Source: an uncultured Thiomicrospira sp. (GTDB lineage: Bacteria > Pseudomonadota > Gammaproteobacteria > CAKMZV01). Taken from it: a DNA stretch of 64,000 nucleotides. The stretch is from assembly GCA_965195345.1 (NCBI GenBank), contig OZ239628.1, positions 32,001 to 96,000 on the forward strand, in the 5' to 3' direction. A program made the translations under genes and the position numbers. A model generated the notes under the pieces. The model was not told the origin of the DNA and did no database searches. It saw only the letters and a list, made by a program, of their open reading frames with translations. The stretch's first letter is position 1; the number at the start of each line of letters is the position of its first letter. Shown here in pieces: positions 599-57,651 of this stretch.

Positions 599-1939
599 TC
601 ACGCTATTCCTTGCACTACTTCATCCATACCTACACCCCTCGATCCTTTTACTAAAATAGTTTGAGGGGTGGCATAGATATTTTTTTTGATTGCTGCGAT
701 CAAAGCGGCTTTATTGTCAAAAAAATTCTTCTCCCCCATAAACGAATCCACCGCATGACGTGAATGCTCTCCAACCGCATAGAATAAAGATATGTTTTTC
801 TCGCTTGCATAGGCACCTATGCCTTTATGAAGCTCTATCGATTGCTCACCCAATTCGAGCATATCCCCCATTACGACTACTGCAGGCAGTCCAAGCTTCA
901 ATGCTTTCTCAACGAGAACATCAATAGCGGCTTTAAATGCTTCTGGGCTTGCGTTATATGTATCATCAATAATTAAACTTTCACCTTTCCAAAGCACATC
1001 TTGACGAGAACCTGGAAGAGTGAAATTTGCTAAACAACTTACACACTCTTGCAAAGTAATTCCCAAATGCAATGCAGCACCTACAGCCATCGCCGCATTA
1101 AAGGCGTTATGCTTTCCAGCCATAGGTAAACGAATAGAAATCGACTCACCTAAATGATCTAAAGTTGTTATACCATCTTCATATTGCCAAGTAACATCAG
1201 CTGAGACCTTACAGTTACTAACCGTTTGAACATGCGCACTTGTTACCTCTTTAAAATGTTGAGCCCATGCGGAGTCAGAATCAATTACTGCGCAACCATG
1301 AGTAGGCAACACTTGCAATAATTCACTCTTTGCTTGAACGGTATTTTCAATACTTCCAAATACGCCTAAATGTGCTGATTGAATATTAGTTAAAATGCCT
1401 ACTTCAGGTTTAAACAAATGCGTTAGCCATTTAATATCGCCTATTTTACGTGCACCCATTTCAAGCAAAGCACACTGCTCATTATTAAATTTTAAAAGCG
1501 TAGAAGGCAGTCCAATCTCATTATTGAAGTTTCCTTCGTTGGTAAGCACTCTTTGCGAATTTGAAAGAATAGCGTACAACATATTTTTCACAGTAGTTTT
1601 ACCACTGCTGCCAGTAACACCAATCCGCCTCCCAGAAAAATGCTTATCAAAATAAGCTGCAGCAATTAACCCAAATGCAGCCACGCTGTTTGTGACTTGC
1701 CAATAAGGTGTGAGGAGGTTGATGGTTCTTTCTCCTACTACTCCAATCGCACCTTTTGACACAGCATCCTCTATAAAGTCATGCCCATCAAAACGCGTGC
1801 CCTTTATAGCAATAAAAATATCGCCCTGTTTGACCAATCGAGCGTCATGTTGGATGTTATTTACATTTAATGAAATTGCAGAGCCAGATACTAAATGATT
1901 GCCAAGAATATTTTTCAAATAGATGCGATTTAATGTCAT
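599..1939 (-). CDS. murF: UDP-N-acetylmuramoyl-tripeptide--D-Ala-D-Ala ligase
   Basis: GVTGSSGKTT P-loop, NFNNEIGLP, EMGA, DDTYNASP, GDMLELG, LVKGSRG. Confidence 0.95.
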   Translation of the reverse strand: MTLNRIYLKNILGNHLVSGSAISLNVNNIQHDARLVKQGDIFIAIKGTRFDGHDFIEDAVSKGAIGVVGERTINLLTPYWQVTNSVAAFGLIAAAYFDKHFSGRRIGVTGSSGKTTVKNMLYAILSNSQRVLTNEGNFNNEIGLPSTLLKFNNEQCALLEMGARKIGDIKWLTHLFKPEVGILTNIQSAHLGVFGSIENTVQAKSELLQVLPTHGCAVIDSDSAWAQHFKEVTSAHVQTVSNCKVSADVTWQYEDGITTLDHLGESISIRLPMAGKHNAFNAAMAVGAALHLGITLQECVSCLANFTLPGSRQDVLWKGESLIIDDTYNASPEAFKAAIDVLVEKALKLGLPAVVVMGDMLELGEQSIELHKGIGAYASEKNISLFYAVGEHSRHAVDSFMGEKNFFDNKAALIAAIKKNIYATPQTILVKGSRGVGMDEVVQGIA

Positions 1940-4267: not shown

Positions 4268-4546
4268 ATGGCAAGAGTAACAGTAGACGACTGCATGAGC
4301 AAGATTGAAAATCCTTTTGATCTAACCCTAATAACCGCTAAACGCGCTTATCAAATCGCAAGAGGAAGTCGCTGCAAGGTTTCTTTAGATCAAGATAAGC
4401 CTGTTGTTCTAGCTTTACGCGAAATTTCCGAAGGATTAAGTGATGAAGCGTCGATCCAAGAAGAAGAGCAAAGAATTCTTGAAAAACTTCGAGAAATGCC
4501 TGACTTTAGAGCCGAAAGAAACAAAGATTTTGGCACACATTCATAA
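4268..4546 (+). CDS. rpoZ: RNA polymerase omega subunit
   Basis: MARVTVDDC..FDLTLITAKRAYQI..DKPVVLALREI; upstream of spoT. Confidence 0.95.
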   Translation: MARVTVDDCMSKIENPFDLTLITAKRAYQIARGSRCKVSLDQDKPVVLALREISEGLSDEASIQEEEQRILEKLREMPDFRAERNKDFGTHS

Positions 4547-4739
4547 CGATTATTTTGGAACAGTTTTTTCCAATCAACAAAAAATAATCTAATATCTCCT
4601 CCTAAGTAAGAGGATTCTTTAAATATCTTCCTATTACGAAAAGAAAATAGGGTAATTTCGTTATAACTTATAAAGCTGGATTGAACCAGCATCTTTGAAA
4701 AACTTCTATATTGTCAAATCAAGGTTATAATCGTTTTCT

Positions 4740-6911
4740 ATGGCTCAATTTTTACAAAATTTAAGTCGCATACCAAAGGTATTTCAATTCAAAGATGAAG
4801 GATTAGCCCTTTTTCAGCCTCTCAAACCATACATAAACTATTTACCAAGAAGTCAACGCAAACGGATTGTACAAGCGTTTCTATTTGCAAGAGATGCCCA
4901 TCATGGACAAATTCGCATGGATGGCAGCCCATATATAACGCATCCTGTTGGAGTTACCGGTATTCTTGCCGACCTAAAACTTGATCCTGACACGCTTATC
5001 GCTGCACTATTGCATGATGTCATTGAAGATACTAATGTTAGTAAAAAAGAAATATCGACCCGTTTTGGCGAACAAGTTGGTGAATTGGTGGATGGTGTAA
5101 GTAAATTAGAGCGCATAGAAAGTCAAACCAGTTCAGAAGCTCAAAGCGCCACCTTACAGAAAATGATCCTTGCCACAGCATCCGATTTACGCATTTTATT
5201 GGTGAAGTTAGCAGATAGAACGCATAATGCTCAAAGTTTAGACGTTTTTAATCCTAAGAAACGTCAACGGATTGGTCAAGAAACACTTGAAATATATGCA
5301 CCATTGGCTGCTCGAATTGGCATAAATTCATGGAGACTTCTTCTTGAAGACTGTGGATTTAAAGCAATATATCCATGGCGCCATAAATCCATCAATAAGG
5401 CAATCAAGATTGCCAAAGGAGAGCGAAGAAAAAAGATTGACGAAGTTTCTGAATTTGTAAAGAAAAGATTAAAAGGCGTTGGTATCAATTCTGATGTTTT
5501 TGGTCGTGAAAAAAATGCATATTCAGTATTTAGAAAAATGAATGAGAAAAAACTCAAATTCGATCAAATACTTGACCTTTTTGCTTACAGAGTTATTGTG
5601 AAAACAGTTGACGATTGTTACAGGGCATTGGGAATTATTCACGGTTTGTACAATCCAGTACCCGGAAAAATAAAAGATTACATCGCATTACCAAAACCCA
5701 ATGGATATCAATCTCTACACACTATATTATTTGGTCCATCTGGTGCGCATATAGAAGTGCAGATACGTACAGAAACTATGCATAAAAACGCGGAGTATGG
5801 CATTGCTGCTCACTGGAGCTACAAGCAATCTGAAGATCAACAACCTAATATAAAAAACCAAAAGCTATCCTTTGAGTGGATTAGTAATCTAATAGAAGTT
5901 AGTAATAGTGCAGGCACATCAAGTGAATTCATTGAGGCTGTTAAAACAGACTTATTCCCCCATGAAGTCTATGTGTTTACCCCTGAGGGAAGCATACTAT
6001 CCTTACCTCGAGGAGCAACAGCCGTAGACTTTGCATACGCGATCCATACAGATGTTGGAAATGAATGTCTTGGCTGCGAAATTGATCGAGAGCGTTCCGA
6101 TATTAGTACTCCTTTACAAAATGGGCAAACTGTTTATATTATTCGATCGAAATTTGCTCGCCCTAATCCAGATTGGTTAGATTTTGTCATTACAGCCAAA
6201 GCACGTTCTCAGATACGAAATTTTCTTAAAAATCAAACCAACGAAGACACAATCCCTATCGGCAAACAACTTTTAGAACAATCCCTAGAGACTTGGAATA
6301 TTAAACTGGACGAAGTTACTCCTAATGTCCTCAACGAATTACTGGCGGATTTGAAAATTGACAGCGATATTGAACTTTACCAACAGATTGGCTTAGGAAA
6401 TCGCCCGACTCAACTGGTTGCAAAGCAGATACAAAACCTAATAGATCCAACGATAAAATCCCCTTCTTCTACGGCTGCACCTATCATAATCCAAGGAACT
6501 GAAGGTATGGCTGTTGCTTTTGGTCATTGTTGCAACCCCATTCATGGAGACCGCATTATAGGTCACTTAAGTACAGGAAAAGGTATAGTGGTGCATCGGT
6601 TAAACTGCCATAATGTTCGAAAGTTCCATAAAACTCCTGAAAAATGTGTTCCAGTTGATTGGCACGAAATTCATAATCAAGCCCTTCCCGTAAGAGTAAA
6701 CATAGAGTCTGAAAACCAAGCAGGTGTTTTAGCAAATATTACGCATATCTTAGATAAAATGAATGTTAACATTGACGAAGCGCACGTCATCAAAGGCGCT
6801 GAAGTCGCAAAAATAGAGATGCTAATACTTGTATCTGCTCGCAAAGAGCTCGCTTCCGTACTGCGTGAATTGAGGAAAATACCAACCGTCATAAAGGCAA
6901 ACAGAGCATGA
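4740..6911 (+). CDS. spoT: bifunctional (p)ppGpp synthetase/hydrolase SpoT
   Basis: PYITHP, LLHDVIED (HD), KLADRTHN, KDYIALPKPNGYQSLHT, EVQIRT, TGS and ACT domains. Confidence 0.95.
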   Translation: MAQFLQNLSRIPKVFQFKDEGLALFQPLKPYINYLPRSQRKRIVQAFLFARDAHHGQIRMDGSPYITHPVGVTGILADLKLDPDTLIAALLHDVIEDTNVSKKEISTRFGEQVGELVDGVSKLERIESQTSSEAQSATLQKMILATASDLRILLVKLADRTHNAQSLDVFNPKKRQRIGQETLEIYAPLAARIGINSWRLLLEDCGFKAIYPWRHKSINKAIKIAKGERRKKIDEVSEFVKKRLKGVGINSDVFGREKNAYSVFRKMNEKKLKFDQILDLFAYRVIVKTVDDCYRALGIIHGLYNPVPGKIKDYIALPKPNGYQSLHTILFGPSGAHIEVQIRTETMHKNAEYGIAAHWSYKQSEDQQPNIKNQKLSFEWISNLIEVSNSAGTSSEFIEAVKTDLFPHEVYVFTPEGSILSLPRGATAVDFAYAIHTDVGNECLGCEIDRERSDISTPLQNGQTVYIIRSKFARPNPDWLDFVITAKARSQIRNFLKNQTNEDTIPIGKQLLEQSLETWNIKLDEVTPNVLNELLADLKIDSDIELYQQIGLGNRPTQLVAKQIQNLIDPTIKSPSSTAAPIIIQGTEGMAVAFGHCCNPIHGDRIIGHLSTGKGIVVHRLNCHNVRKFHKTPEKCVPVDWHEIHNQALPVRVNIESENQAGVLANITHILDKMNVNIDEAHVIKGAEVAKIEMLILVSARKELASVLRELRKIPTVIKANRA

Positions 6912-7696
6912 AAGTACTGCTCTACTTACCGTTTTTTTTGCTACTGGCCTCTTGTGCTTCGTCCACTCAAAAAGGAGCAGTTGGAGTTGAACGCCAACAA
7001 CTACTCATCATGTCTTCTACCGAAGTGCACAAAAGTGCAGATACAGCCTACACCGAAATTTTGGCTGAAGCTAAGAAAAACAAAACGCTGAATACTGATA
7101 AAAAAATGCTTGAGCGTATCCAAAGTATTGCTGATCGCCTTATCCCTCAGACCGCAGTATTTCGCAAAGATGCCCCTCAATGGCACTGGATGGTAAATCT
7201 CATTAAATCTGATCAACTGAACGCGTGGTGTATGCCTGGAGGAAAAATTGCTTTCTACACAGGCATCATAGAGAAATTACAATTGACCGATGCTGAAATA
7301 GCCGCCATAATGGGTCATGAAATGGCTCATGCGTTGCGTGAGCATGGACGTGAACGAATTTCTGAGCAAATGTTAACAACATCAGGACTGAATGTATTAA
7401 GTTCTCTTTTTGGAGTCAGTGCTCCAGCTGCCAAATTAGTAACTGATGTAACCTTAACATTGCCGAACTCTCGTACTCACGAAACCGAAGCAGATCGCAT
7501 AGGCATAGAGCTCATTGCCCGAGCCAACTTTAATCCCTACGCTGCGGTTAAAGTATGGGAAAAAATGGAAAAAGTATCTTCAGGATCTCAGCCTGAAATA
7601 TTAAGCACCCACCCATCGAATAAAACTCGAATTCAAGACCTCAAAAAATATGCAAAGCTCGTTGAGCCATTATATGAAAAGAATAAATCAAATTAA
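6908..7696 (+). CDS. M48 family Zn metallopeptidase lipoprotein (LoiP/Oma1-like)
   Basis: Lipobox LASC; NAWCMPGGKI, HEMAH, ETEAD, STHP. Confidence 0.9.
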   Translation: MKVLLYLPFFLLLASCASSTQKGAVGVERQQLLIMSSTEVHKSADTAYTEILAEAKKNKTLNTDKKMLERIQSIADRLIPQTAVFRKDAPQWHWMVNLIKSDQLNAWCMPGGKIAFYTGIIEKLQLTDAEIAAIMGHEMAHALREHGRERISEQMLTTSGLNVLSSLFGVSAPAAKLVTDVTLTLPNSRTHETEADRIGIELIARANFNPYAAVKVWEKMEKVSSGSQPEILSTHPSNKTRIQDLKKYAKLVEPLYEKNKSN

Positions 7697-8711
7697 AAAA
7701 ATAGGGGTTTTCCTTTTTCTTCTTACATTATTTGGATGCTCTACTCCAAAAATTCAAACCCGTGTTGAACTTCCGGCAAAAATCCCCGAAGTTAGCAAAG
7801 TCAAGAAAATCGGCATTTATGATTTAAAAAACGATATGATTCTCATAGGTGCAAAATTAGAAGAATTATTTCGATCAGTTCAAGCAAATAATACTCCTTT
7901 TTTTGAAGTATTCAATAGAGAAGACCTCGAAAGAATTATCCAAGAACAAAACAATGCCAGTAGCATACTATTCAATGAAGCACAAGTTATTAATATTGGG
8001 AAACTTGCCAAAGTAGAGGCCATTCTTACTGGAGCAGTACAAACTGCAATACTCAAACAAACGCCCTATACTAAAACTAAGTTTCGTCTTCAATGTCTTA
8101 TATGGAAAAATCTTGCATGCCAACAATGGGTTCCAATCAGTTATCCCGTACACTGTACAAAGTCTCAAAGTAGCATTGCATTTCAAATTCGCATTAGTGA
8201 TGTTGAAAATGGACAGGCAATACTGGCAAAAACGTACACCGGTGCAAACAGTAATGACACTTGCTCAACACCTCCTTCCCTCGCTCAGATGCAACAGCAA
8301 TCCATTCGACAAGCGTTGGCAAATGTGCGCCAAGATATTGCACCGTACTACATATCTGTTACCATCGAACTCATGGAAAAAGATAATAGCAACTTATCCG
8401 ATCAAAAAGAAGCCCAAGAATACTTTGATTTGGGGCTTGAATTTATAAACGCCGACACTCCGAGCATACAGAAAGGGTGTGGTTACTTCCATCAAGCAGC
8501 AAGCCGCTACGGTGAGTCTGCTGCAATATACTACAATCTCGGAGTTTGTACAGAAATAGAAGGAGACATTAACAAAGCACAAAGTTATTATCTTCAAGCA
8601 GAACAAAAACTCAAAAAACCAAATAACCTCGTATCGAAAGCTTTACAGAATATTAAAAAAAGGAAAGCAGACGAAGCAGCCCTCGAAAAACAAAAGAGCA
8701 TTAGGGAATAA
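7674..8711 (+). CDS. lipoprotein with CsgG/HfaB-like domain and C-terminal TPR
   Basis: Lipobox LFGC; FNREDLERIIQEQ..IGKLAKVEAILTG resembles CsgG-like fold; YYNLGVCTE..A..YY TPR-like. Start moved to ATG 7674. Confidence 0.65.
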   Translation: MKRINQIKKIGVFLFLLTLFGCSTPKIQTRVELPAKIPEVSKVKKIGIYDLKNDMILIGAKLEELFRSVQANNTPFFEVFNREDLERIIQEQNNASSILFNEAQVINIGKLAKVEAILTGAVQTAILKQTPYTKTKFRLQCLIWKNLACQQWVPISYPVHCTKSQSSIAFQIRISDVENGQAILAKTYTGANSNDTCSTPPSLAQMQQQSIRQALANVRQDIAPYYISVTIELMEKDNSNLSDQKEAQEYFDLGLEFINADTPSIQKGCGYFHQAASRYGESAAIYYNLGVCTEIEGDINKAQSYYLQAEQKLKKPNNLVSKALQNIKKRKADEAALEKQKSIRE

Positions 8712-8714
8712 CTG

Positions 8715-9572
8715 ATGCTTCGACTTACATTCTTTCTGTCAATGATGCTGCTGATTACAGCATGCAGTTCAACTAAGATAAAAAATGATTGCTCTTGTGC
8801 CACATATCAACCAAAGTCCCCACGCCCCAGCTGGATCGATAACGAGAACGTTAGTTCAAAGGCACTACTGAGCAGCGGAGGCAGTCAGTGCACAGGAATA
8901 CAAACTTTAGATTTTAAAGAATCTGACCAGAATGCGCGCCTTAATCTTGGATTATTGATTCGAGCGAATGTTCGTGGAGAGATCAATATCATAAAAAGAC
9001 AAGATTCTTCCGTTGGCGGACTTAGCCAAGCCTCTGTACAAAGCGCCGTTTCCTCAGAATCCTTACTTGAAAATGCTTTTGTCTATGATCGTTGGGTCGA
9101 TCCTATAAATTGCTCAATTCACAGTGCCATCAGGTTGAATAAAGAGGACTACCAGCGCACTAAAAATCGTTTGCAAGAGATAGAAGCACGCAAACCCAAA
9201 AATCAATTGATGTTACTGCGATTGAAAAATAATGTACCCTCTGAATTGTTGCTTGCAACACTGAGTAATCTTGGTGCGCAAAAACTAACTTTAGATCAAA
9301 CCATTTCCAGCCAAGTCTATACTATTGAGTGGGAAAGCCAACAACCGCAAGAGCACGTGGAAGGCAGCATACACGCCATTATTATCAAATCAATTTTGTT
9401 GGTGAAAAATCGTAAAGATCAAGTCGTACTTAGTCTGGTAAAAAACGGCAAATCATTTCACCGAGGTAACGTGAATGATCCATCATTTTTATACGAAAAG
9501 GCGCGTCGCCATGCACTTTTACAAATGCATGAACCATTGAAGAAATTCCTAACCACCCCTATAACACAATAG
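8715..9572 (+). CDS. lipoprotein, LPP20-like
   Basis: Lipobox ITAC; RPSWI then A..NAR..L, D.WVDP pattern typical of LPP20-like domains. Confidence 0.55.
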   Translation: MLRLTFFLSMMLLITACSSTKIKNDCSCATYQPKSPRPSWIDNENVSSKALLSSGGSQCTGIQTLDFKESDQNARLNLGLLIRANVRGEINIIKRQDSSVGGLSQASVQSAVSSESLLENAFVYDRWVDPINCSIHSAIRLNKEDYQRTKNRLQEIEARKPKNQLMLLRLKNNVPSELLLATLSNLGAQKLTLDQTISSQVYTIEWESQQPQEHVEGSIHAIIIKSILLVKNRKDQVVLSLVKNGKSFHRGNVNDPSFLYEKARRHALLQMHEPLKKFLTTPITQ

Positions 9573-9724
9573 TCAAACAAGCATCTTTGCCAATTATTAG
9601 CTGTTTGGTCTGTGCAACAACGTCATTAGCATTTACATTCTCTAAAAAGATTTTGGGTAATGCAACTTTTCTTTTCCTAATATATTTTCAATGACTCCCT
9701 GTGTGTGTATCTCTATCATCTGCC

Positions 9725-11086
9725 TTATAGTATCCAAATCGTTGCTAATCCTAAAAAGGCGATAAACCCAACCACATCCGTCACCGTAAATAAAATAACC
9801 CCACCTGCAATTGCTGGATCAACTCCAAGTCTATTGAGGAATAGTGGAATAAAAACCCCTGATGCTGCCGCTACAATCAAGTTAACAACAACAGCTGAGC
9901 CTATTGTAATACTAAGTAGTATGTTATCAAACCAGAACCAAACAATGACACTAATAAGCAATGACCAAAGTAAACCGTTAAGAATCGCTATTAAAATTTC
10001 TTTGCGTAAGACCCAATGCGTTGACTTTCCTTGCAACTCACCAAGCGATAAACTTCTAATTACAAGAGCAAGTGTCTGCGACCCTGCTATACCACCCATA
10101 CTCACGACGATAGGCATCAGTACTGCTAATGCGGTTAGCTTTTCTATAGTCGGCTCAAAAACACCTATAATCCAAGCGGCAAGAAACGCAGTCAAAAGAT
10201 TCACGCCTAACCAAACGGCGCGCCTGCGTGTGCTTTGAATAATTGGGGCGAATGTATCTTCACGTACAGTCCCATGTAAACTCATCAATTGTCGCTGCCC
10301 TGCTTCACGAATATAGTCGACAATATCATCGACTGTTATGCGTCCAATCAATTTGTTTTTTTCATCAACTACAGCAATGGAAAGTAAATCCAACTTTATG
10401 AATACATCCGCTACTTCACTGACTGGTTTTTCAGCAGTTACTGTAGGGACTTCCTTTTTCATAACATCTTTAATGGCCACTTCCCCTTCATTGACGAGCA
10501 ATGATGATAACGTCACGTGTCCAAGAAAATGAGCCCCTCGATCGATTACAAATAATTTATCTGTTCCTGAAGGCAATACTTTAAGTTGACGCAAATAACG
10601 CCGCACAACTGAAACAGTAACGTCTGATCTAACAGTTATGACTTCCAAATCCATAACGCCACCAGCAACATCCTCTGGAAAGGATAGTACTGCTTGCAAC
10701 CTTTTTCTACGATCTTCATCTAACGCAAGCAGTATTTCGTCAACACGCCCTGGAATATCCTGCAAAACATCCGCAAAATCATCCGTATCCAGTCCTTTTG
10801 TTAGCTCAACAACTTCTTTAACCTCTAAAGGTTCAAGTAGTTGCGTTCGGATTTCATCATCCAATTCCTGTAATATTGCCCCACCAATTTCAGTCGGAAC
10901 CAGTGACCAAATAGCTTCGCGTTGATTCGGCGGCACTGCTTTTAACACATACGCCATATCCACTGGGTGCGCTTCAAGAATTAAAGCACTAAGAATGTTA
11001 TCTTGCCCACTTTCAAGCGCGCTTAAAAATCGATTAAGCAACGTTACTTGCAGCTGTGTTTGCGCGCTATACGTCATGCCGTTCAT
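9725..11086 (-). CDS. mgtE: magnesium transporter MgtE
   Basis: N-domain, CBS pair, GRITVDD, MGGIAGSQT, GVDPA..TVTDVVG. Confidence 0.95.
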   Translation of the reverse strand: MNGMTYSAQTQLQVTLLNRFLSALESGQDNILSALILEAHPVDMAYVLKAVPPNQREAIWSLVPTEIGGAILQELDDEIRTQLLEPLEVKEVVELTKGLDTDDFADVLQDIPGRVDEILLALDEDRRKRLQAVLSFPEDVAGGVMDLEVITVRSDVTVSVVRRYLRQLKVLPSGTDKLFVIDRGAHFLGHVTLSSLLVNEGEVAIKDVMKKEVPTVTAEKPVSEVADVFIKLDLLSIAVVDEKNKLIGRITVDDIVDYIREAGQRQLMSLHGTVREDTFAPIIQSTRRRAVWLGVNLLTAFLAAWIIGVFEPTIEKLTALAVLMPIVVSMGGIAGSQTLALVIRSLSLGELQGKSTHWVLRKEILIAILNGLLWSLLISVIVWFWFDNILLSITIGSAVVVNLIVAAASGVFIPLFLNRLGVDPAIAGGVILFTVTDVVGFIAFLGLATIWIL

Positions 11087-51862: not shown

Positions 51863-52588
51863 ATGTCGCAGCAAACATTAAACCTTTTAGAATCTATAGG
51901 ACTTTCCATAGAAATCATTCGCACAGATCGAAAGCGATCCGTCTCTATGCAATTAGAGGGGGAAAAGCTAAGAATACGCGTGCCAAAAACGCTGGAAGAT
52001 AAGGTCATACAAGACCTCATCATCAAAAAATCCACATGGATTAAAAAAAAACTTGCCCAAAACAAAAACAAGCCTCTGATTGTCCCGCCAAAATATGCGG
52101 ATGGGGAATATTTTAAGTACCTTGGTGAGGATTACATACTAACAATCAATACCAATGAAGGTATACCTTATTTGATATTACAAGATAACAGTTTCCAAGC
52201 ATTCATACCAGAAAAAACGGAAAAAATAGAATCCACCATTAACGACTTATTCATAAAATGGTATCAACAAAATGCGTCCTTAATACTCGAGGAAAAAACC
52301 AACCACTTTGCCAAAGTGATTGGCGTGTACCCTAAATCAATCACAATAAAGAACTACAAATCCAGATGGGGTGCTTGTTCAATCGAAGGCAACATATTTT
52401 ATAACTGGCGTCTCATCCTCACACCGATCGCTATTATTGACTATGTGGTCGTTCACGAACTTTGTCATATGCTGGAACACAACCACTCAAAACGTTATTG
52501 GCAACACGTCATGCGCTACCTCCCCGACCACAAAGAACGCCGCAAGTGGTTACGAGAAAATGCCATCCACATCAGCCATTACGAATAA
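51863..52588 (+). CDS. YgjP/DUF45-like zincin metallo-hydrolase
   Basis: KSRWGACS, NWRLI, DYVVVHELCHMLEHNHS..W. Confidence 0.88.
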   Translation: MSQQTLNLLESIGLSIEIIRTDRKRSVSMQLEGEKLRIRVPKTLEDKVIQDLIIKKSTWIKKKLAQNKNKPLIVPPKYADGEYFKYLGEDYILTINTNEGIPYLILQDNSFQAFIPEKTEKIESTINDLFIKWYQQNASLILEEKTNHFAKVIGVYPKSITIKNYKSRWGACSIEGNIFYNWRLILTPIAIIDYVVVHELCHMLEHNHSKRYWQHVMRYLPDHKERRKWLRENAIHISHYE

Positions 52589-52740: not shown

Positions 52741-54057
52741 CTAACTTTCAGTTGTAAATGAACTCATGAGAACTGCATATTCTGAGATTACATCATCTCT
52801 ATTTCCTCGAAAATAATGCCGTATGAGTGATAAAGCGTTAGAAATAAAATCGTCTATAGGGCTAAGCTCATTATCACTCATTAAAATGCATTTCAGGAGG
52901 GCGTGCAAGCGATGACGATCAAAGTTAACAATCGCTAATTTTTCAATTAATTCACTAAATGAAATATCTTTATGCTTCAGTCTGTTAAACAAAGGAGGAT
53001 CACAGACTTTAACCATTGCAAGAAAAACCACAATCTCTGTCAAGTAATCCTTATTAGAAAGTCCTAAACCCACAATCACAATATTTGTATATACCTTCTC
53101 CAATTGTCTTAATGATAGATCATAGTGTTTAGATAAAATTACTATATTTTCATAAAACACAGAATGTTCTTGCTTTGGTTCAGTAAAGCCATGTAATTCA
53201 AATAACCTTTGAGAGTATTTTTTAATATCATAAACATGAGATTCTTTCTTGTTTTGGGGCAATGATGACTCTATAGTTATAAACTTTTGTAAATAAGTAT
53301 GAGCATCAATATCTTGTCCATAAACTTTTTTTACAGCCACCTCCAACTGTTTTTTATTCATAACTAAGACAAATACAACGTTTTTAACTGAAAATAAATG
53401 TTTGATTTTTTCAATGACTTGAACGGCAAAGGGTGGTCTGCATCGATCGAGCTCATCAATGATGATTACTAAAGGAGTGTCTTTATTTTCGTTTAACTTA
53501 GATGGGAGTTTTGAGAGATCTTCTCTAAAGGATTGAACGAAATTTACTTCCTCTTCATGCGATTTCACTCGATCTTTAACATACTGATCAACGAGCTCTG
53601 CCGCACCATTTGACCATAAGTTTTTGAAACTTTCACTTTCTGTATCTCCAAACGTATTTAAAGTCACCGCCTTGATGCCCATTTTCGTCAACACTGGCAT
53701 TACCGTACGAGCAACGTTTGTTGCTTTTTTTATAAATTCATCAGTGTTTACATTAGAATTTTTACTAACATAATTGTTAATAGCACTTACTATTGGAATA
53801 AAGGCATCATCTGCATAATCAATTGAAAAAGCGTCAATGTAAATGTTTGAAATGTTGTTTTTTGTCAGCATTCCTTGCCACATCTTTACAAAGGTTGTCT
53901 TTCCCTCTCCCCAATCAGCATCAATTGAAATGACTAATTCGTGCTCAACATCGCGAACTATATTTCGAAGAAACTCTCCATACGCCTTCCTATTAAGAAT
54001 ATCTTTCTCAAACCCCTCTTGCTCATCAATATCCAGTGGTGGAATAACCAGTTTCAT
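52741..54057 (-). CDS. KAP-family P-loop NTPase (no TM segments)
   Basis: D.LNR, WGEGKTT Walker A, IIIDELDRC Walker B, IKHLF, YLQKFI; AT-rich; SD GGAG. Confidence 0.9.
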   Translation of the reverse strand: MKLVIPPLDIDEQEGFEKDILNRKAYGEFLRNIVRDVEHELVISIDADWGEGKTTFVKMWQGMLTKNNISNIYIDAFSIDYADDAFIPIVSAINNYVSKNSNVNTDEFIKKATNVARTVMPVLTKMGIKAVTLNTFGDTESESFKNLWSNGAAELVDQYVKDRVKSHEEEVNFVQSFREDLSKLPSKLNENKDTPLVIIIDELDRCRPPFAVQVIEKIKHLFSVKNVVFVLVMNKKQLEVAVKKVYGQDIDAHTYLQKFITIESSLPQNKKESHVYDIKKYSQRLFELHGFTEPKQEHSVFYENIVILSKHYDLSLRQLEKVYTNIVIVGLGLSNKDYLTEIVVFLAMVKVCDPPLFNRLKHKDISFSELIEKLAIVNFDRHRLHALLKCILMSDNELSPIDDFISNALSLIRHYFRGNRDDVISEYAVLMSSFTTES

Positions 54058-54280: not shown

Positions 54281-54319
54281 TCACTCCACAGTAACTGAAT
54301 AAACTGGAACGGCAATTAT
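54281..54319 (-). repeat. left junction: recoded copy of glmS 3' end plus element end arm
   Basis: Minus strand TCA GTT ACT GTG GAG TGA vs glmS TCG GTT ACA GTT GAG TAA (14/18, all differences silent); adjoining arm is an inverted repeat of 55760-55787. Confidence 0.8.
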
Positions 54320-54480
54320 AATTAGACCGTTCTTCTTCCCCCTATTTTAAGACTTTTTTAACTCTACCCTTCTGTAAATCTACAGCTTAAGTAGTGGGTT
54401 TACTTACCAAATCTTTGACAGAGTATCCCTCATCCTTATCGTTCTTATCGTTGTAGACCAACTTGTCCCGAAAAGAAGTT
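54281..54480 (-). pseudogene. decayed 3' fragment of an ORF ending YSVTVE (possibly the element's recombinase)
   Basis: Frame-broken peptides DKLVYNDKNDKDEGYSVKD, VDLQKGRVKK, NRGKKNGLIIIAVPVYSVTVE*; recombinase identity is inference. Confidence 0.4.
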
Positions 54481-54518
54481 CTTAGATATCCTCACTTTCT
54501 AAATCTCTGATACTTGCT

Positions 54519-54733
54519 TGCAGTAAAATGTGGTTGAGGACATTTCTGGGTCAGACTCTGTAATGGGAGAAGTTAGGCAGGGTGAAAGAAAAGGTTCTCA
54601 GTTTCTTGTATGCAGCCGTTACCCGAGATGTCGCTTCACAAAGGATATAAAACAAGAAAGCGGTAGCACTTGGCGTTTCACAATCATTGTTATTTTGATT
54701 ATAATCGGAATCATTTGGTGGGTTTTATACTGA
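54519..54733 (+). pseudogene. topoisomerase-type C4 Zn ribbon + TM helix, N-terminus broken
   Basis: GSQFLVCSRYPRCRFT motif; first Cys pair recoverable as TGC AGT AAA (A) TGT GGT = CSKCG at 54519-54534, followed by TGA. Confidence 0.55.
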
Positions 54734-54734
54734 T

Positions 54735-54881
54735 ATGGAGTTCTTACTGTTATGTTTCGTGGTTGGTGTAATCATCCTCTATCCTAAACCCATAATGAAA
54801 GGTATTTGGGCGACGATAGTGGGGGGAGCAGTAATCTTTGGTGTATCCATTCTTCTGATAATTATAGTCGGTTCTGGTTAA
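54735..54881 (+). CDS. 48-aa two-helix membrane protein (not in ORF track)
   Basis: MEFLLLCFVVGVIILYPKPIMKGIWATIVGGAVIFGVSILLIIIVGSG*; starts 1 nt after the previous stop. Confidence 0.55.
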   Translation: MEFLLLCFVVGVIILYPKPIMKGIWATIVGGAVIFGVSILLIIIVGSG

Positions 54882-54977
54882 TGAGAGTTTGAACGGTGAG
54901 GTGGTGCAAGTGGTGTGATATCGGATAAGCAGAAGTATTAGATAATTAGTATCCAATTGAAATAACGAGGTTTTTAC

Positions 54978-55592
54978 ATGGCGATTGTTTATATTTTAAC
55001 TAATGAAAGTATGTCGGACATTATCAAGATTGGTATCACCGACAACTTGTATAGAAGACTTAAAGACTTAGACAACACATCAACTCCGCTTCCTTTTGAG
55101 TGTTTCTATGCCGTTGAGGTTAATGATGCGAAAGCAATTGAAAATCTTCTCCATGAGGCATTTGACGATAAAAGAATTCGTCAAAATAGGGAGTTCTTCG
55201 ACTGCGCACCAGAACAAGCAAAATCCGCACTAAAAATTGCAGAGAAAATGGGAGGCAGAGATGTAACTCCTAAAGAAATGGTTTTTGAAAATCAGCAAGA
55301 CAAACAAGCATTAGATAATGCAAAGAAACGCAAAGGGAGAGTGGACTACTTTGGAATTCTTGGAATCAATGTAGGGGAGATTCTTACTTTCTCAAAAGAC
55401 AGTTCTATCACTTGTACGGTTAGAGGCAATAAACAAGTTCTTTTCAGAGATGAACTGACAACACTGTCTGGTTCTGCATTAATCATCGTTACTGAGATGG
55501 GTTACAACTGGGCACAAGCCAGAGGTGCGGCATATTGGTGTTATAAGGGCACCACTCTTTTGGATTTATCTCAACAAGCACAAGATGGGTAG
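54978..55592 (+). CDS. GIY-YIG (T5orf172-type) nuclease with RAMA-like C-terminal domain
   Basis: IVYILTN..IKIG.T..L.RR..PLPF..E..LH..NREFF; C-terminal G..L.F..V.F....LS..A..G..YW.Y.G..L..L; SD GAGG. Confidence 0.8.
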   Translation: MAIVYILTNESMSDIIKIGITDNLYRRLKDLDNTSTPLPFECFYAVEVNDAKAIENLLHEAFDDKRIRQNREFFDCAPEQAKSALKIAEKMGGRDVTPKEMVFENQQDKQALDNAKKRKGRVDYFGILGINVGEILTFSKDSSITCTVRGNKQVLFRDELTTLSGSALIIVTEMGYNWAQARGAAYWCYKGTTLLDLSQQAQDG

Positions 55593-55725
55593 AAGCAGAA
55601 GAATATTATTATGCGATACCTAATCTAACAAAGTAATTAATCAAGTCGCGATTGCGTTGCTGCACTTCAGTCCAGTTCCTTGTTGATTAACCTGTGAGTG
55701 GGGTTAAACGAGGAAAAAGTTACTC

Positions 55726-55760
55726 AAAAACAGAGAAACTATTGCCAGTTCTCTGAAAAA
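55726..55760. terminator. bidirectional terminator-like hairpin after glmS (inside the element)
   Basis: CAGAGAAACT/AGTTCTCTG stem with a T5 tract on the minus strand. Confidence 0.6.
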
Positions 55761-55776
55761 TAATCACCGTTCCGAC

Positions 55777-57651
55777 TTACTCAACTGTAACCGATTTTGC
55801 AAGATTACGCGGTTGATCGATGTCCGTTCCTCTAATCAAGGCGACATGATAGGCTAACAATTGCAACGGTATGGCAAAAATAATCGGTGCGGTAATACGC
55901 CCAACACCAGACGTTATTGGAATAACGTTGCTCCATCCGTCTGTCGAAATGTTCGACTTCTCATCTTCAAACACAATGAGATTGCCCCCTCGAGCATGCA
56001 CTTCCTGCAAATTTGACCGCAACTTTGCTAATAACTCATCATGCGGCGCAACCACTATCACCGGTGTGTTTTCATCAACCAACGCAAGTGGTCCGTGCTT
56101 GAGCTCTCCTGCAGGATATGCTTCAGCGTGGATATAGGCTACTTCTTTAATTTTTAATGCGCCTTCCAACGCAACAGGGTACATGCTCCCTCTGCCTAAA
56201 ATAAGCGCGTTGTCAAACTCAGCTATGATAGTCGCTACTTTAGCAATTTCTTTTTCACAATTAAGCACACGTTTTATCAAGCTTGGGAGGTGCCTCAGCC
56301 CTTGTGCTATACGCATTTCTTGATCTTCTTGGATGCGTTTTTGTACTTTCCCTATAACAACAAGTAACAAAGCCAGCGCAACCAATTGTGTTGTGAATGC
56401 CTTGGTTGAGGCAACACCAACCTCAACCCCTGCATGCGTCAAAAAAACCATGTCTGCACTACGTGTGATGGTGGAATCTGGCGTGTTACAAATCGTTAAG
56501 ACGGGAATGTTTTTAATTTTACGTTGCTCATCTATCAGTTCAAGGGCAGCTCTTGTATCTGCCGTTTCTCCAGATTGTGAAACGACTACGTACAAAGTGT
56601 TATTTAAAATAACAGGGTTGCGATAACGAAATTCACTGGCAATTTCAACATTAACAGGAATATCCAAAATATCTTCAAACCAGTATTTGGAAACCATCCC
56701 AGCATAATAACTTGTGCCGCAAGCAAGTACCGTCACTTGTGATATGCTTTTGAGCGTTTCAGGCGCTTGTGCTCCAAAAGCATCCGTAAGAATCGAATCA
56801 CCCACTAAAGCGTTTTGCAAAGTTTGAGTTACTGCATCGGGTTGCTCATATATTTCCTTGAGCATATAGTGCCTGTAATCACCCTTTCCTTCGATATTAC
56901 TAAATACTCTAATCGTTGATATAGTACGTTTTTCATTGATCTCATTTTTGGAGTCAAAAACGTTTTCACCATTCAAATCAAAAATTTGTAAATGTTGTTT
57001 TTCGATGTAAACAATGTCGCCATCTTCGAGGGGTATGTAGCTCTGAGTTACTGGCGTTAAAGCATGCGGATCCGAGGCAATAAAATATTCCCCAATCCCA
57101 ACACCCACCACCAACGGGCTACCGCAACGCACAGCCACTAAGCTATCAGGATGATGCACATCGATAATGCCTAAGGCATACGCGCCCTCAAACATCTTCA
57201 ACGATTCTTGAACACAAGATATGAGACTATTCCCGTTCGCTTCTAAATTGCGATTTAAAACATGTGCGATTACTTCGGTGTCCGTCTCACTGGTAAATAC
57301 TTGCCCCTCCTTCTTCAGCGACTCTCTTAATTCATGGAAATTTTCAAGTATGCCGTTATGTACTACTGCTAATCGACTTCCACTGATGTGAGGGTGCGCA
57401 TTATCTTCAGAAGGCGCGCCATGCGTTGCCCAACGAGTATGGGCTATTCCTGTAGTGGAGGAAGGTTTTTCCTGTTCAATTTTATTAACCAGTGCTTGTA
57501 CTTTTCCTAATGCACGTATCCTTTCCAAAGTGCCATCAGCGATTATAGCAACCCCAGAAGAATCGTAACCTCTGTACTCAAGACGACGTAATCCTTCTAA
57601 TAAAATAGGAACAACATTGCGTTCTGCAACCGCACCAATAATTCCGCACAT
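55777..57651 (-). CDS. glmS: glutamine--fructose-6-phosphate transaminase
   Basis: MCGI, RGYDS, HTRWATHG, SQSGET, ELKHGP, PRNLAKSVTVE. Confidence 0.98.
   Translation of the reverse strand: MCGIIGAVAERNVVPILLEGLRRLEYRGYDSSGVAIIADGTLERIRALGKVQALVNKIEQEKPSSTTGIAHTRWATHGAPSEDNAHPHISGSRLAVVHNGILENFHELRESLKKEGQVFTSETDTEVIAHVLNRNLEANGNSLISCVQESLKMFEGAYALGIIDVHHPDSLVAVRCGSPLVVGVGIGEYFIASDPHALTPVTQSYIPLEDGDIVYIEKQHLQIFDLNGENVFDSKNEINEKRTISTIRVFSNIEGKGDYRHYMLKEIYEQPDAVTQTLQNALVGDSILTDAFGAQAPETLKSISQVTVLACGTSYYAGMVSKYWFEDILDIPVNVEIASEFRYRNPVILNNTLYVVVSQSGETADTRAALELIDEQRKIKNIPVLTICNTPDSTITRSADMVFLTHAGVEVGVASTKAFTTQLVALALLLVVIGKVQKRIQEDQEMRIAQGLRHLPSLIKRVLNCEKEIAKVATIIAEFDNALILGRGSMYPVALEGALKIKEVAYIHAEAYPAGELKHGPLALVDENTPVIVVAPHDELLAKLRSNLQEVHARGGNLIVFEDEKSNISTDGWSNVIPITSGVGRITAPIIFAIPLQLLAYHVALIRGTDIDQPRNLAKSVTVE

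What the first reader, a model, noticed from the sequence alone, without database searches (positions are those of the whole stretch)
54281..54480. Decayed ORF running through the att site and ending in the same SVTVE as host GlmS
Seen: the frame leading into the displaced tail reads NRGKKNGLIIIAVPVYSVTVE*. Upstream, with stops and a frameshift, are DKLVYNDKNDKDEGYSVKD and VDLQKGRVKK. Because the two tails are synonymous, this ORF would end YSVTVE both integrated and excised. Inference, from recalled resemblance only: this is the C-terminal remnant of the element's recombinase. attP would then lie inside the integrase gene, which swaps 3' ends with glmS without changing either protein. The rest of the gene is missing, so the element is probably immobile. 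A separate palindrome (GAACGG-CAATTATAATTAGA-CCGTTC, 54307-54332) overlaps the arm.
Basis: partly seen in the sequence, partly recalled or inferred. Interest (0 to 1): 0.7.

Follow-up and report, generated by a model that had tools for sequence, protein, structure and literature searches.

The report
Relic of a glmS-targeting serine recombinase
The flagged stretch is the broken tail end of a serine recombinase gene that once inserted a small mobile element into the last codons of the essential gene glmS, and its intact relatives carry their own attachment site inside the recombinase gene, so that integration cuts that gene in two.

Summary
The sequence is as described, but the reading frame is not. 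Window 54282-54470 (-) is one frame with two in-frame stops and no frameshift. It is 69-72% identical to residues 525-588 of intact large serine recombinases (LSRs) found in marine bacteria. This frame crosses the displaced glmS tail out of register. The 21-codon frame ending YSVTVE* is not the gene.

A second relic of the same gene (LSR residues 584-643) lies 1.5 kb away, directly after the true glmS stop (55612-55792). The two relics bracket a 1,496-bp element. Its ends are an imperfect 18-nt direct repeat, both copies coding SVTVE*, and 24-nt inverted arms.

In relatives, attP lies inside the LSR reading frame. An integrated 9.6-kb element has a 588-codon LSR; rejoining its ends gives 706 codons. 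The element's end supplies the last glmS codons, so GlmS is unchanged.

The window's copy has lost residues 1-524, and the genome holds no other LSR of this family, so it cannot move itself. The claim that neither protein changes fails for this lineage, but four more distant relatives do end in SVTVE or SITVE. Recombinases that split their own gene are described in a review as exclusive to archaea.

The parts
54282..54470 (-). Relic of the N-part of a large serine recombinase gene (residues ~525-588 of ~600/676-717). It has two in-frame stops (one TAG, one TAA) and one missing codon. This is the flagged feature.
   Evidence: tblastn with P0001, P0007 and P0024 gives 63-72% identity, local E 7e-20 to 7e-17. 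BLASTP gives 22/27, E 8e-13. The DNA is 79-80% identical to the LSR 3' ends of L086 and L087. The own-genome search finds it with 1 TAG and 1 TAA.
54288..54319 (-). attR. The core is GTTACTGT (54295->54288), with the predicted crossover AC at 54292-54291. The element-side inverted arm is at 54296-54319.
   Evidence: The arm matches the reverse complement of the attL arm at 18 of 24 positions; 2 of 200,000 random 24-mer pairs from the window reach that. The same arm abuts VTVE* tails in L084, L086 and L087.
54281..54292 (-). Displaced original end of glmS (AC TGT GGA GTG A, i.e. ..T V E stop), followed by the T8 run of the old downstream flank.
   Evidence: The SVTVE* pattern is found here. It matches the present glmS tail at 14 of 18 nt, and all four differences are synonymous or stop-for-stop.
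54530..54733 (+). Fragment of a cargo gene: the C-terminal 60 or so residues of a NERD + zinc-ribbon + transmembrane protein. It is inverted relative to the recombinase relic.
   Evidence: Partial Pfam Zn_ribbon_Top1 match. Window 54547-54875 is 80% identical in DNA to L087:1687-2015. The protein match is 75% to residues 192-244 of the 252-aa NERD protein of L087.
54735..54881 (+). 48-codon hydrophobic ORF. It lies inside the block that is homologous to L087. Its status as a gene is unknown.
   Evidence: ORF list. No family found. DNA homology block.
54978..55592 (+). Intact 204-aa T5orf172/MUG113-domain gene. It matches the candidate single-gene defence family PDC-S57.
   Evidence: Pfam PF10544 3.3e-19 and PF13455 2.7e-18. 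PADLOC PDC-S57 2.9e-64 over residues 2-201. Full-length relatives are in 9 of 400 same-class genomes, and only one of them lies near glmS.
55612..55792 (-). Relic of the C-part of the same recombinase gene (residues ~584-643). It begins at the att core inside the glmS stop region. It has three in-frame stops and one frameshift, and it is cut off by the cargo.
   Evidence: tblastn with P0007 and P0024 matches 55822/55792->55679 (71-82% identity by the different runs) and 55680->55612 (50-61%), local E about 2e-16. It closely matches the intact C-part beside glmS in L130, compared by eye.
55760..55791 (-). attL. The core is GTTACAGT (55791->55784), with the predicted crossover AC at 55788-55787. 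The element-side arm at 55760-55783 supplies the last base of the Thr codon plus GTT GAG TAA to glmS.
   Evidence: The homologous left end follows glmS in L084.
55777..57651 (-). glmS, an intact 624-codon ORF ending KSVTVE. Its last 10 bases (55777-55786) come from the element.
   Evidence: ORF and Pfam SIS/GATase domains. The junction is inferred from the att architecture.

Best explanation
Window 54291-55788 is a decayed, rearranged integrative element of 1,496 bp measured core to core. It was inserted by a large serine recombinase (LSR) into the Thr codon of the GlmS C-terminus ...S-V-T-V-E.

In intact members of the family, attP is about 56 bp long. Two 17-24-bp inverted arms flank a centre that reads like the end of glmS. 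This attP lies inside the LSR reading frame, in a linker between the catalytic and DNA-binding core (about 585 residues) and a C-terminal helical module of about 120 residues.

Recombination with the glmS tail, predicted at the AC dinucleotide, has three consequences:
1. The element's right att half is placed after glmS and re-creates ..V-E-stop, so GlmS is unchanged.
2. The C-terminal module of the LSR is left directly behind glmS at attL.
3. The truncated LSR is left at attR, reading into the displaced glmS tail out of frame.

The flagged stretch is that attR-side LSR end. Here it is reduced to its last ~64 codons and carries two stop codons. The attL-side piece is also a relic. The interior now holds an intact T5orf172/PDC-S57 gene and a fragment of a NERD-domain gene. 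With no LSR of this family left in the genome, the element cannot move by itself.

Shown: the homologies, the repeat architecture, the ORF lengths in integrated and rejoined form, and the adjacency to glmS. Inferred: the exact crossover, that the LSR catalysed the insertion, and what the detached module does.
For: Homology of the flagged stretch to intact LSRs:
- P0001 from L086 carries PF00239 and PF07508.
- The window fragment is 22/27 identical to it, E 8e-13.
- Both relics were mapped by tblastn, and the DNA alignment runs through the tail.

Repeat architecture:
- The 18-nt direct repeat matches at 14 of 18 positions, and both copies read SVTVE*.
- The inverted arms match at 18 of 24 positions; 2 of 200,000 random pairs reach that.
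- The same arm-plus-tail junctions occur in L084, L086, L087, L094, L097, L099, L101, L103 and L104.
- The dyad centre falls between A and C of GTNACNGT in 5 of 6 attP-like junctions.

attP inside the ORF:
- L101, L093, L092, L090 and L099 have 715-721-aa ORFs through the site.
- 8 of 57 family clusters cover at least 93% of the 715-aa query. Most of the others stop at about 77-86% coverage, near or a little before the att site; five are shorter partial sequences.
- In L149, an element of 9,622 nt sits next to glmS. Its LSR is 588 codons when integrated and 706 codons when the ends are rejoined.

glmS targeting:
- In the order of G784, 50 of 192 genomes match the LSR.
- Of 21 loci holding the C-part, 13 abut the glmS stop and 16 have glmS within 1.3 kb.

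Immobility: the own genome holds only the relic. Its 4 PF00589 and 2 PF00239 hits lie elsewhere.
Against: - No empty site was found for the window's host. Same-genus genomes are too distant: GlmS is 61% identical and the downstream neighbours differ.
- The four runs laid on the region showed no joint across the element.
- A search for empty sites in the order of G784 found only other occupied sites with decayed tails.
- No recombination has been shown. The crossover at AC rests on symmetry alone.
- The continuous 715-aa ORFs come from metagenome contigs that may be tandem arrays rather than excised circles. L101 has two related 111-aa genes about 9 kb apart.
- In one branch (L150, L122, L123) the LSR has its own stop just after a lysine run, before the att site. 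The fused form is therefore not universal.
Confidence: 0.88

Rival explanations
1. The decayed recombinase ORF reaches the tail by a frameshift and ends YSVTVE* both integrated and excised, so neither GlmS nor the recombinase changes.
For: The 21-codon frame ending YSVTVE* exists and would end the same way after rejoining the ends. Four more distant LSR relatives end in PSVTVE or PSITVE.
Against: The closest intact relatives (P0001, P0007, P0024) align to the other frame right through the tail, as ...NYNHRSNLFS... against ...NYNCRSSLFS..., with no frameshift. Upstream of the stop that opens the YSVTVE frame there is no homology in that frame. The 21 codons match no family.
Confidence: 0.04
2. 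This is not a dead relic but a non-autonomous mini-element. A cargo cassette bounded by still-usable att sites could be excised or moved by an LSR supplied in trans by an incoming relative.
For: Both arms and cores are largely intact, with 18/24 between the two arms and 16/17 for the attL arm against the L086 arm, counted by eye. LSR-less units of about 1.5 kb stand in tandem behind glmS in L084. Most matches among the genomes of the order of G784 cover the C-part only, without an N-part.
Against: The cores differ at one base (A/T). The attR arm carries 2-3 changes relative to relatives. The interior shows an inversion and truncated genes, which looks like decay. The genome has no LSR of the family. 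The laid runs show no joint.
Confidence: 0.15
3. A DDE-type transposon with 24-bp terminal inverted repeats and an 8-bp target duplication (GTTACAGT/GTTACTGT) that landed in glmS by chance.
For: Inverted arms abutting an 8-bp direct repeat are also the signature of a cut-and-paste transposon.
Against: No transposase is present. Homologous ends elsewhere are tied to an LSR gene whose codons run through them. All copies seen next to a known gene sit at the same glmS position. The element end re-creates V-E-stop, which a random insertion would rarely do.
Confidence: 0.02
4. A remnant of a Tn7-like transposon at attTn7.
For: Tn7-like elements use the conserved glmS end as a target, and decayed copies are common downstream of glmS (PMC11014353, passages read).
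Against: The junction is inside the glmS coding sequence, not downstream of the stop. No Tns-type family was hit in the window's neighbouring ORFs. The end relics are LSR codons.
Confidence: 0.01

Closest known systems
SSV-type 'suicidal' tyrosine integrases of archaeal viruses and plasmids (SSV1, pTN3, pT26-2)
   Same: The attachment site lies inside the recombinase's own reading frame, so integration partitions the gene into two pieces at opposite ends of the integrated element. Split relics accumulate in genomes. (PMC8371274, passages read; PMC7253208, start of abstract seen in the listing.)
   Different: Those are tyrosine recombinases of archaea that target tRNA genes, and the split separates the catalytic part. 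Here the enzyme is a bacterial large serine recombinase and the target is the end of a protein gene. The Resolvase and Recombinase domains stay on the N-part, and only a ~120-residue C-terminal module is detached. The review states that self-disrupting recombinases are found exclusively in archaea.
SCC elements (Ccr large serine recombinases) at the 3' end of rlmH/orfX in staphylococci
   Same: (Recalled, not from a call.) LSR-driven insertion into the last codons of a conserved housekeeping gene without destroying it; imperfect direct repeats with inverted repeats at the ends; tandem arrays; recombinase-less remnants.
   Different: The ccr genes sit inside the element, and the att site is not within their reading frame. 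The target gene and the hosts also differ.
Genomic islands in tRNA/tmRNA genes (tyrosine integrases)
   Same: [quoted passage not shown] (PMC4383910, start of abstract seen in the listing.)
   Different: The target there is an RNA gene, the integrase is a tyrosine recombinase, and the integrase gene stays whole.
Integration-dependent immunity of mycobacteriophages and Gordonia phages
   Same: attP inside an element's coding gene means the protein's C-terminus differs between the free and the integrated state. (This mechanism is recalled; the search listing, including PMC3694055, was the only thing seen.)
   Different: There the split gene is the repressor and the integrase is a tyrosine recombinase. 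No such regulatory consequence has been shown here.
Tn7 and Tn7-like transposons at attTn7
   Same: They exploit the very conserved end of glmS as a safe landing site across many hosts. (PMC11014353, passages read.)
   Different: Those use TnsABCD transposition and insert downstream of the stop codon. No glmS codons are replaced and no recombinase is involved.

Membership tests
Large serine recombinase (as a gene relic) | Sequence homology to a bona fide LSR | tested here: met
   The window has 64 + ~60 codons matching residues 525-588 and 584-643 of P0007, P0001 and P0024. P0001 carries PF00239 and PF07508.
Large serine recombinase (as a gene relic) | N-terminal resolvase catalytic domain with the serine nucleophile | tested here: not met
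   No match to LSR residues 1-524 anywhere in the window or the genome. The window holds a fragment, not a functional member.
Large serine recombinase (as a gene relic) | Recombinase domain and zinc-ribbon/coiled-coil domain | tested here: not met
   Absent from the window. Present in relatives: PF07508 in all relatives and PF13408 in some.
Site-specific integrative element | Direct repeat of the target's end at both boundaries, with the target gene restored | tested here: met
   SVTVE* is coded at 55777-55794 and at 54281-54298, and glmS is an intact ORF.
Site-specific integrative element | Recombinase-binding inverted arms next to the crossover | tested here: met
   18/24 between the two arms. 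Relatives have arms with 17 perfectly matched bases.
Site-specific integrative element | Empty site in a related genome, or an excised circle | tested here: inconclusive
   Relatives are too distant. No joint appears in the laid runs. No empty site was recovered in the order of G784.
Self-splitting ('suicidal') recombinase architecture | attP within the recombinase ORF; the ORF is shortened on integration and restored on rejoining | tested here: met
   L149 has 588 codons integrated and 706 rejoined. ORFs of 715-721 aa run through att in 5 loci. The window has relics of both parts at opposite ends.
Self-splitting ('suicidal') recombinase architecture | SSV-family tyrosine integrase (Phage_integr_3, PF16795), archaeal host | tested here: not met
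   The enzyme is a serine recombinase (PF00239). One host record is titled as a SAR116-cluster alphaproteobacterium and another as Alphaproteobacteria.
Tn7-like transposon at attTn7 | tnsABC(D) genes and insertion downstream of the glmS stop | tested here: not met
   No Tns family appears among the neighbouring ORFs. The junction is inside the Thr codon of glmS.
PDC-S57 candidate defence gene (cargo) | Full-length match to the PADLOC model; T5orf172 domain | tested here: met
   PDLC05041 2.9e-64 over residues 2-201 of 204. PF10544. A defence function was not tested.

The most novel reading that the evidence does not exclude
This family is the first bacterial, serine-recombinase counterpart of the archaeal 'suicidal' integrases, and the split acts as a switch. 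The full-length enzyme of about 710 residues would exist only while the element is excised or stands in a tandem array. Integration would detach a conserved three-helix module and park it directly behind glmS, in an open frame that overlaps the glmS stop. The detached module, or its loss from the enzyme, would then set the direction of recombination, acting as a built-in directionality factor or as an integration-only domain. This could help explain how recombinase-less cassettes pile up behind glmS, as seen in about a quarter of the sampled genomes of one order that includes a SAR116-cluster member.
Probability: 0.25. Interest if true: 0.85.

Novelty: new variant of a known kind. Interest (0 to 1): 0.7.

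Why it matters
The window's copy is a dead remnant. It nevertheless leads to an undescribed family of large serine recombinases with two unusual properties.

First, the family targets the almost universal last codons of glmS. The SVTVE-stop pattern was found in 33 of 41 genomes. That fits the family's presence in very different hosts: element ends are 80% identical in DNA between hosts whose GlmS proteins are about 40% identical.

Second, the attachment site sits inside the recombinase's own reading frame, so the gene is cut on integration. A 2021 review says that architecture is known only from archaeal tyrosine integrases.

The family would interest people who study how integration direction is controlled. 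It would also interest people who mine serine integrases as genome-engineering tools, because it offers a compact attP of about 56 bp paired with a natural landing site that many bacteria carry.

The finding also explains a recurrent pattern of small accessory-gene cassettes behind glmS in marine bacteria. In the window one of these carries a candidate defence gene.

Tried and rejected
- **Chance ORF.** Rejected by homology.
- **Family scans of the open pieces.** Pfam, NCBIfam and PHROGs found nothing at E <= 10, apart from one PHROG of unknown function at E 0.12. The homology came only from related loci.
- **RNA elements.** No Rfam family and no tRNA near the site.
- **Terminator reading of the palindrome.** It was not picked up by the scan and is not conserved in relatives.
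- **Longer duplication of glmS.** Only the 18 nt are shared.
- **Other copies.** None in the genome, in plasmids or in phages.
- **Phage origin.** No relative of the 715-aa LSR in IMG/VR.
- **Cargo tied to the element.** T5orf172 relatives are mostly not near glmS.
- **Even sample of the phylum.** Only distant LSRs of 31% identity or less in 7 of 401 genomes.
- **Empty-site search.** The host flank of L150 hit 29 of 192 genomes. In the three examined whose match reached the flank's start, the homology began at a decayed tail behind other inserts, and none of the six examined had glmS nearby.
- **Reads.** Four runs were laid; there were no joints, and coverage by short contigs was patchy in three runs.
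- **Fold of the C-part.** The AlphaFold model had pLDDT 81.7. Foldseek against the PDB gave no match at E <= 0.001. The weak top rows are three-helix DNA-binding domains, and a Bxb1 chain is at rank 18. The PDB sequence profile search found nothing significant.
- **Earlier scan notes.** Nothing relevant.
- **Literature.** Searches for glmS with integrases or LSRs, and for attP inside a serine integrase gene, found no description. The main text of Durrant et al. 2022 does not mention glmS, and its supplements were not looked at.

Full report
**1. What is at the coordinates**

glmS is the 624-codon ORF at 55777-57651 (-). It ends KSVTVE-TAA. A second SVTVE-stop is coded 1.5 kb downstream on the same strand, at 54281-54298. 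No other exists in the 64-kb window.

The two 18-mers match at 14 of 18 positions. All four differences are synonymous or exchange one stop codon for another.

Between the two tails lie three ORFs on the + strand:
- a 67-codon ORF with a partial topoisomerase-type zinc ribbon;
- a 48-codon hydrophobic ORF;
- an intact 204-codon T5orf172/MUG113 gene, which matches the PADLOC candidate defence family PDC-S57 over its whole length.

Beyond the displaced tail lie a KAP NTPase (PDC-S20) and a YgjP-type peptidase, and then core genes.

**2. The repeat architecture**

Directly inside the two tails are 24-nt inverted arms, at 54296-54319 and 55760-55783. They match at 18 of 24 positions. Only 2 of 200,000 random 24-mer pairs from the window do as well.

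Read along the glmS strand, the two junctions are:
- ...AAA TCG GTTACAGT TGAGTAA-arm at the glmS side;
- arm-TTATTCA GTTACTGT GGAGTGA-T8 at the far side.

**3. The decisive comparison**

I scanned one genome per species for the consensus of the two arms. This found two marine alphaproteobacterial records with the same arm abutting a VTVE-stop tail.

In L086 the arm and tail lie inside the 3' end of an intact 601-codon gene, P0001. It has a resolvase catalytic domain and a recombinase domain, so it is a large serine recombinase. Its residues 525-551 are 22 of 27 identical to the window's frame at 54390-54491. The DNA alignment runs from 54470 to the tail.

With P0001, P0007 and P0024 as queries, tblastn maps two relics in the window:
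- Residues 525-588 map to 54470->54282, at 63-72% identity, with two in-frame stops and one missing codon.
- Residues 584-643 map to 55792->55612, directly behind the glmS stop, with three in-frame stops and one frameshift.

It is one frame, and that frame crosses the tail out of register (...NYNCRSSLFSYCGV). The 21 codons ending YSVTVE* belong to another frame and have no homologue.

**4. attP lies inside the recombinase gene**

A metagenome scan with P0001 gave 20 loci at 50-99% identity.

In five of them (L101, L093, L092, L090, L099) the ORF is 715-721 codons. It runs straight through an att site with 17-nt arms that match perfectly or with one mismatch, and into a further ~120 residues. 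L091 has a 678-codon form.

In others (L087, L097, L103) the arm and tail are followed by unrelated DNA that lacks the left-end arm, and the LSR match stops near the site. In L087 the ORF ends 600 codons in.

In the protein collection, 57 clusters match at E <= 1e-30. Eight cover at least 93% of the 715-residue query. Most of the others are 560-626 residues long and cover about 77-86% of the query, so they end near or a little before the att position; five are shorter, probably partial, sequences.

The extra part is the same as a small ORF that lies immediately behind glmS in L084.

**5. Integrated elements next to glmS**

In the order of G784, the genome of L084 (whose record is titled a SAR116-cluster alphaproteobacterium), 50 of 192 species genomes match the LSR. 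Nine have a near-complete N-part, and most have the C-part only.

Of 21 C-part loci, 13 abut the glmS stop and 16 have glmS within 1.3 kb upstream on the same strand. Five show no glmS in the stretch held.

L149 (G788) shows the whole arrangement. In order it has glmS, attL, the C-part, cargo, a small resolvase, the 588-codon LSR, attR, and then further short units. The element is 9,622 nt long. Rejoining its own two ends gives an open frame of 706 codons.

L150 (G839) is an 8,441-nt element of a branch whose LSR has its own stop after a lysine run. There the C-part frame is open for 26 codons upstream of the junction.

**6. The crossover**

In 5 of 6 attP-like junctions, the centre of dyad symmetry falls between the A and the C of GTNACNGT. 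That is in the Thr codon of S-V-T-V-E.

An asymmetric central dinucleotide is what large serine recombinases use (established knowledge, not tested here).

On that reading, the host's original glmS end was ...TCG GTT AC|T GTG GAG TGA followed by T8. The element supplies A GTT GAG TAA to the present gene.

**7. State of the window's copy**

The copy lacks LSR residues 1-524 and 644 onward.

The zinc-ribbon ORF is the last ~60 residues of a 252-residue NERD + zinc-ribbon + membrane protein that is cargo in L087. Window 54547-54875 is 80% identical in DNA to L087. In the window this block is inverted relative to the recombinase relic.

The genome holds no other LSR of this family. Its tyrosine and small serine recombinases lie elsewhere. 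The copy cannot move by itself. Whether its att sites could still be used in trans is open.

**8. What the detached part may be**

The C-part is conserved across 23 sequences, with 47% mean column identity and 15 invariant columns. It gives partial hits to the Pfam Recombinase domain.

It folds with pLDDT 81.7 as a strand, three helices and a strand. No solved structure matches at E <= 0.001. The weak top rows are three-helix DNA-binding domains.

In every intact attL examined, its frame is open back through the att site into the end of glmS. No Met codon precedes its conserved start in that frame, except in L151, where one Met lies 35 residues into the open frame at the start of the conserved part.

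Its role is inferred, not shown. It could be a directionality factor, an integration-only domain, or nothing after the split.

**9. Comparison with what is known**

The closest architecture is that of the SSV-type 'suicidal' tyrosine integrases. A 2021 review states that self-disrupting recombinases are found exclusively in archaea (PMC8371274, passages read).

My searches found no paper on a serine recombinase with attP in its own gene, or on an LSR targeting glmS. The library is incomplete, and the supplements of the large LSR survey were not looked at.

Restoration of a target gene's 3' end is ordinary for islands in tRNA genes. By recall, it is also ordinary for SCC elements at rlmH.

**10. 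Against, or still open**

- No empty site or excised circle was seen for any member.
- The long ORFs may come from tandem arrays rather than circles. That still gives the same junction.
- One branch keeps the two parts as separate frames.
- The DNA context of the four relatives that end in SVTVE or SITVE was not seen.

**Verdict**

The family behind the relic is a new variant of site-specific integration.

Noticed in passing
window 52741-54057 (-) and 51863-52588 (+): Just beyond the displaced tail lie a KAP-family P-loop NTPase that matches the candidate defence family PDC-S20 (4.5e-100) and a YgjP-like metallopeptidase. They may be an older accessory block at the same site, between glmS and core genes.
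   Followed up: partly
L051 (G038:C31) 4395-4595 and 6302-8134: In a high-GC genome of another family, glmS is followed by a Fic-domain gene and then by a 66-codon duplicate of the glmS end with an identical SVTVE-stop 18-mer. A SIR2-like gene comes next. This is a different way of displacing the glmS tail.
   Followed up: no
L077 (G208:C1) 4337-10500: A 41%-identical T5orf172/PDC-S57 relative lies 1.7 kb behind glmS in an AT-rich island. The island also holds what looks, by eye, like an IS1595-type transposase fragment and a large Fic-like protein; no family scan was run on them. No glmS tail duplicate was looked for in detail.
   Followed up: partly
L150 (G839:C7) about 830-900 (-); also L122, L123: In one branch the LSR stops right after a run of lysine codons (an A-run), while the C-part frame is open from about there through the att site. 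A ribosomal slip on the A-run could join the two. Many relatives end just after the same RG-KKK motif.
   Followed up: no
L084 1532-4600; L149 14055-16900: Behind glmS stand tandem runs of short recombinase-less units of about 1.5 kb, each opening with a C-part ORF and closing with an arm and a VTVE-stop tail. The pattern resembles a cassette array.
   Followed up: partly
L149 10744-11295; L087 3048-3638; L101 4796-5335; L093 1805-2344: A small (179-196 aa) resolvase/invertase-type serine recombinase gene sits just upstream of the LSR in several elements. It could account for inversions such as the one seen in the window's relic.
   Followed up: no
window 55778-55816, run X1 record 3: A second, lower-depth contig in one run shares the last 39 bases of glmS, including the element-type GTT GAG TAA, with one difference. 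It then continues with unrelated sequence right after the stop. It may be another strain or organism with a different insert.
   Followed up: no
L055 (G001) 8790-8826; L052/L054 (G009): The same-genus genome G001 has a GlmS that ends AKAVTVG instead of KSVTVE. G009 has two full glmS genes plus one chance SVTVE-stop site.
   Followed up: no
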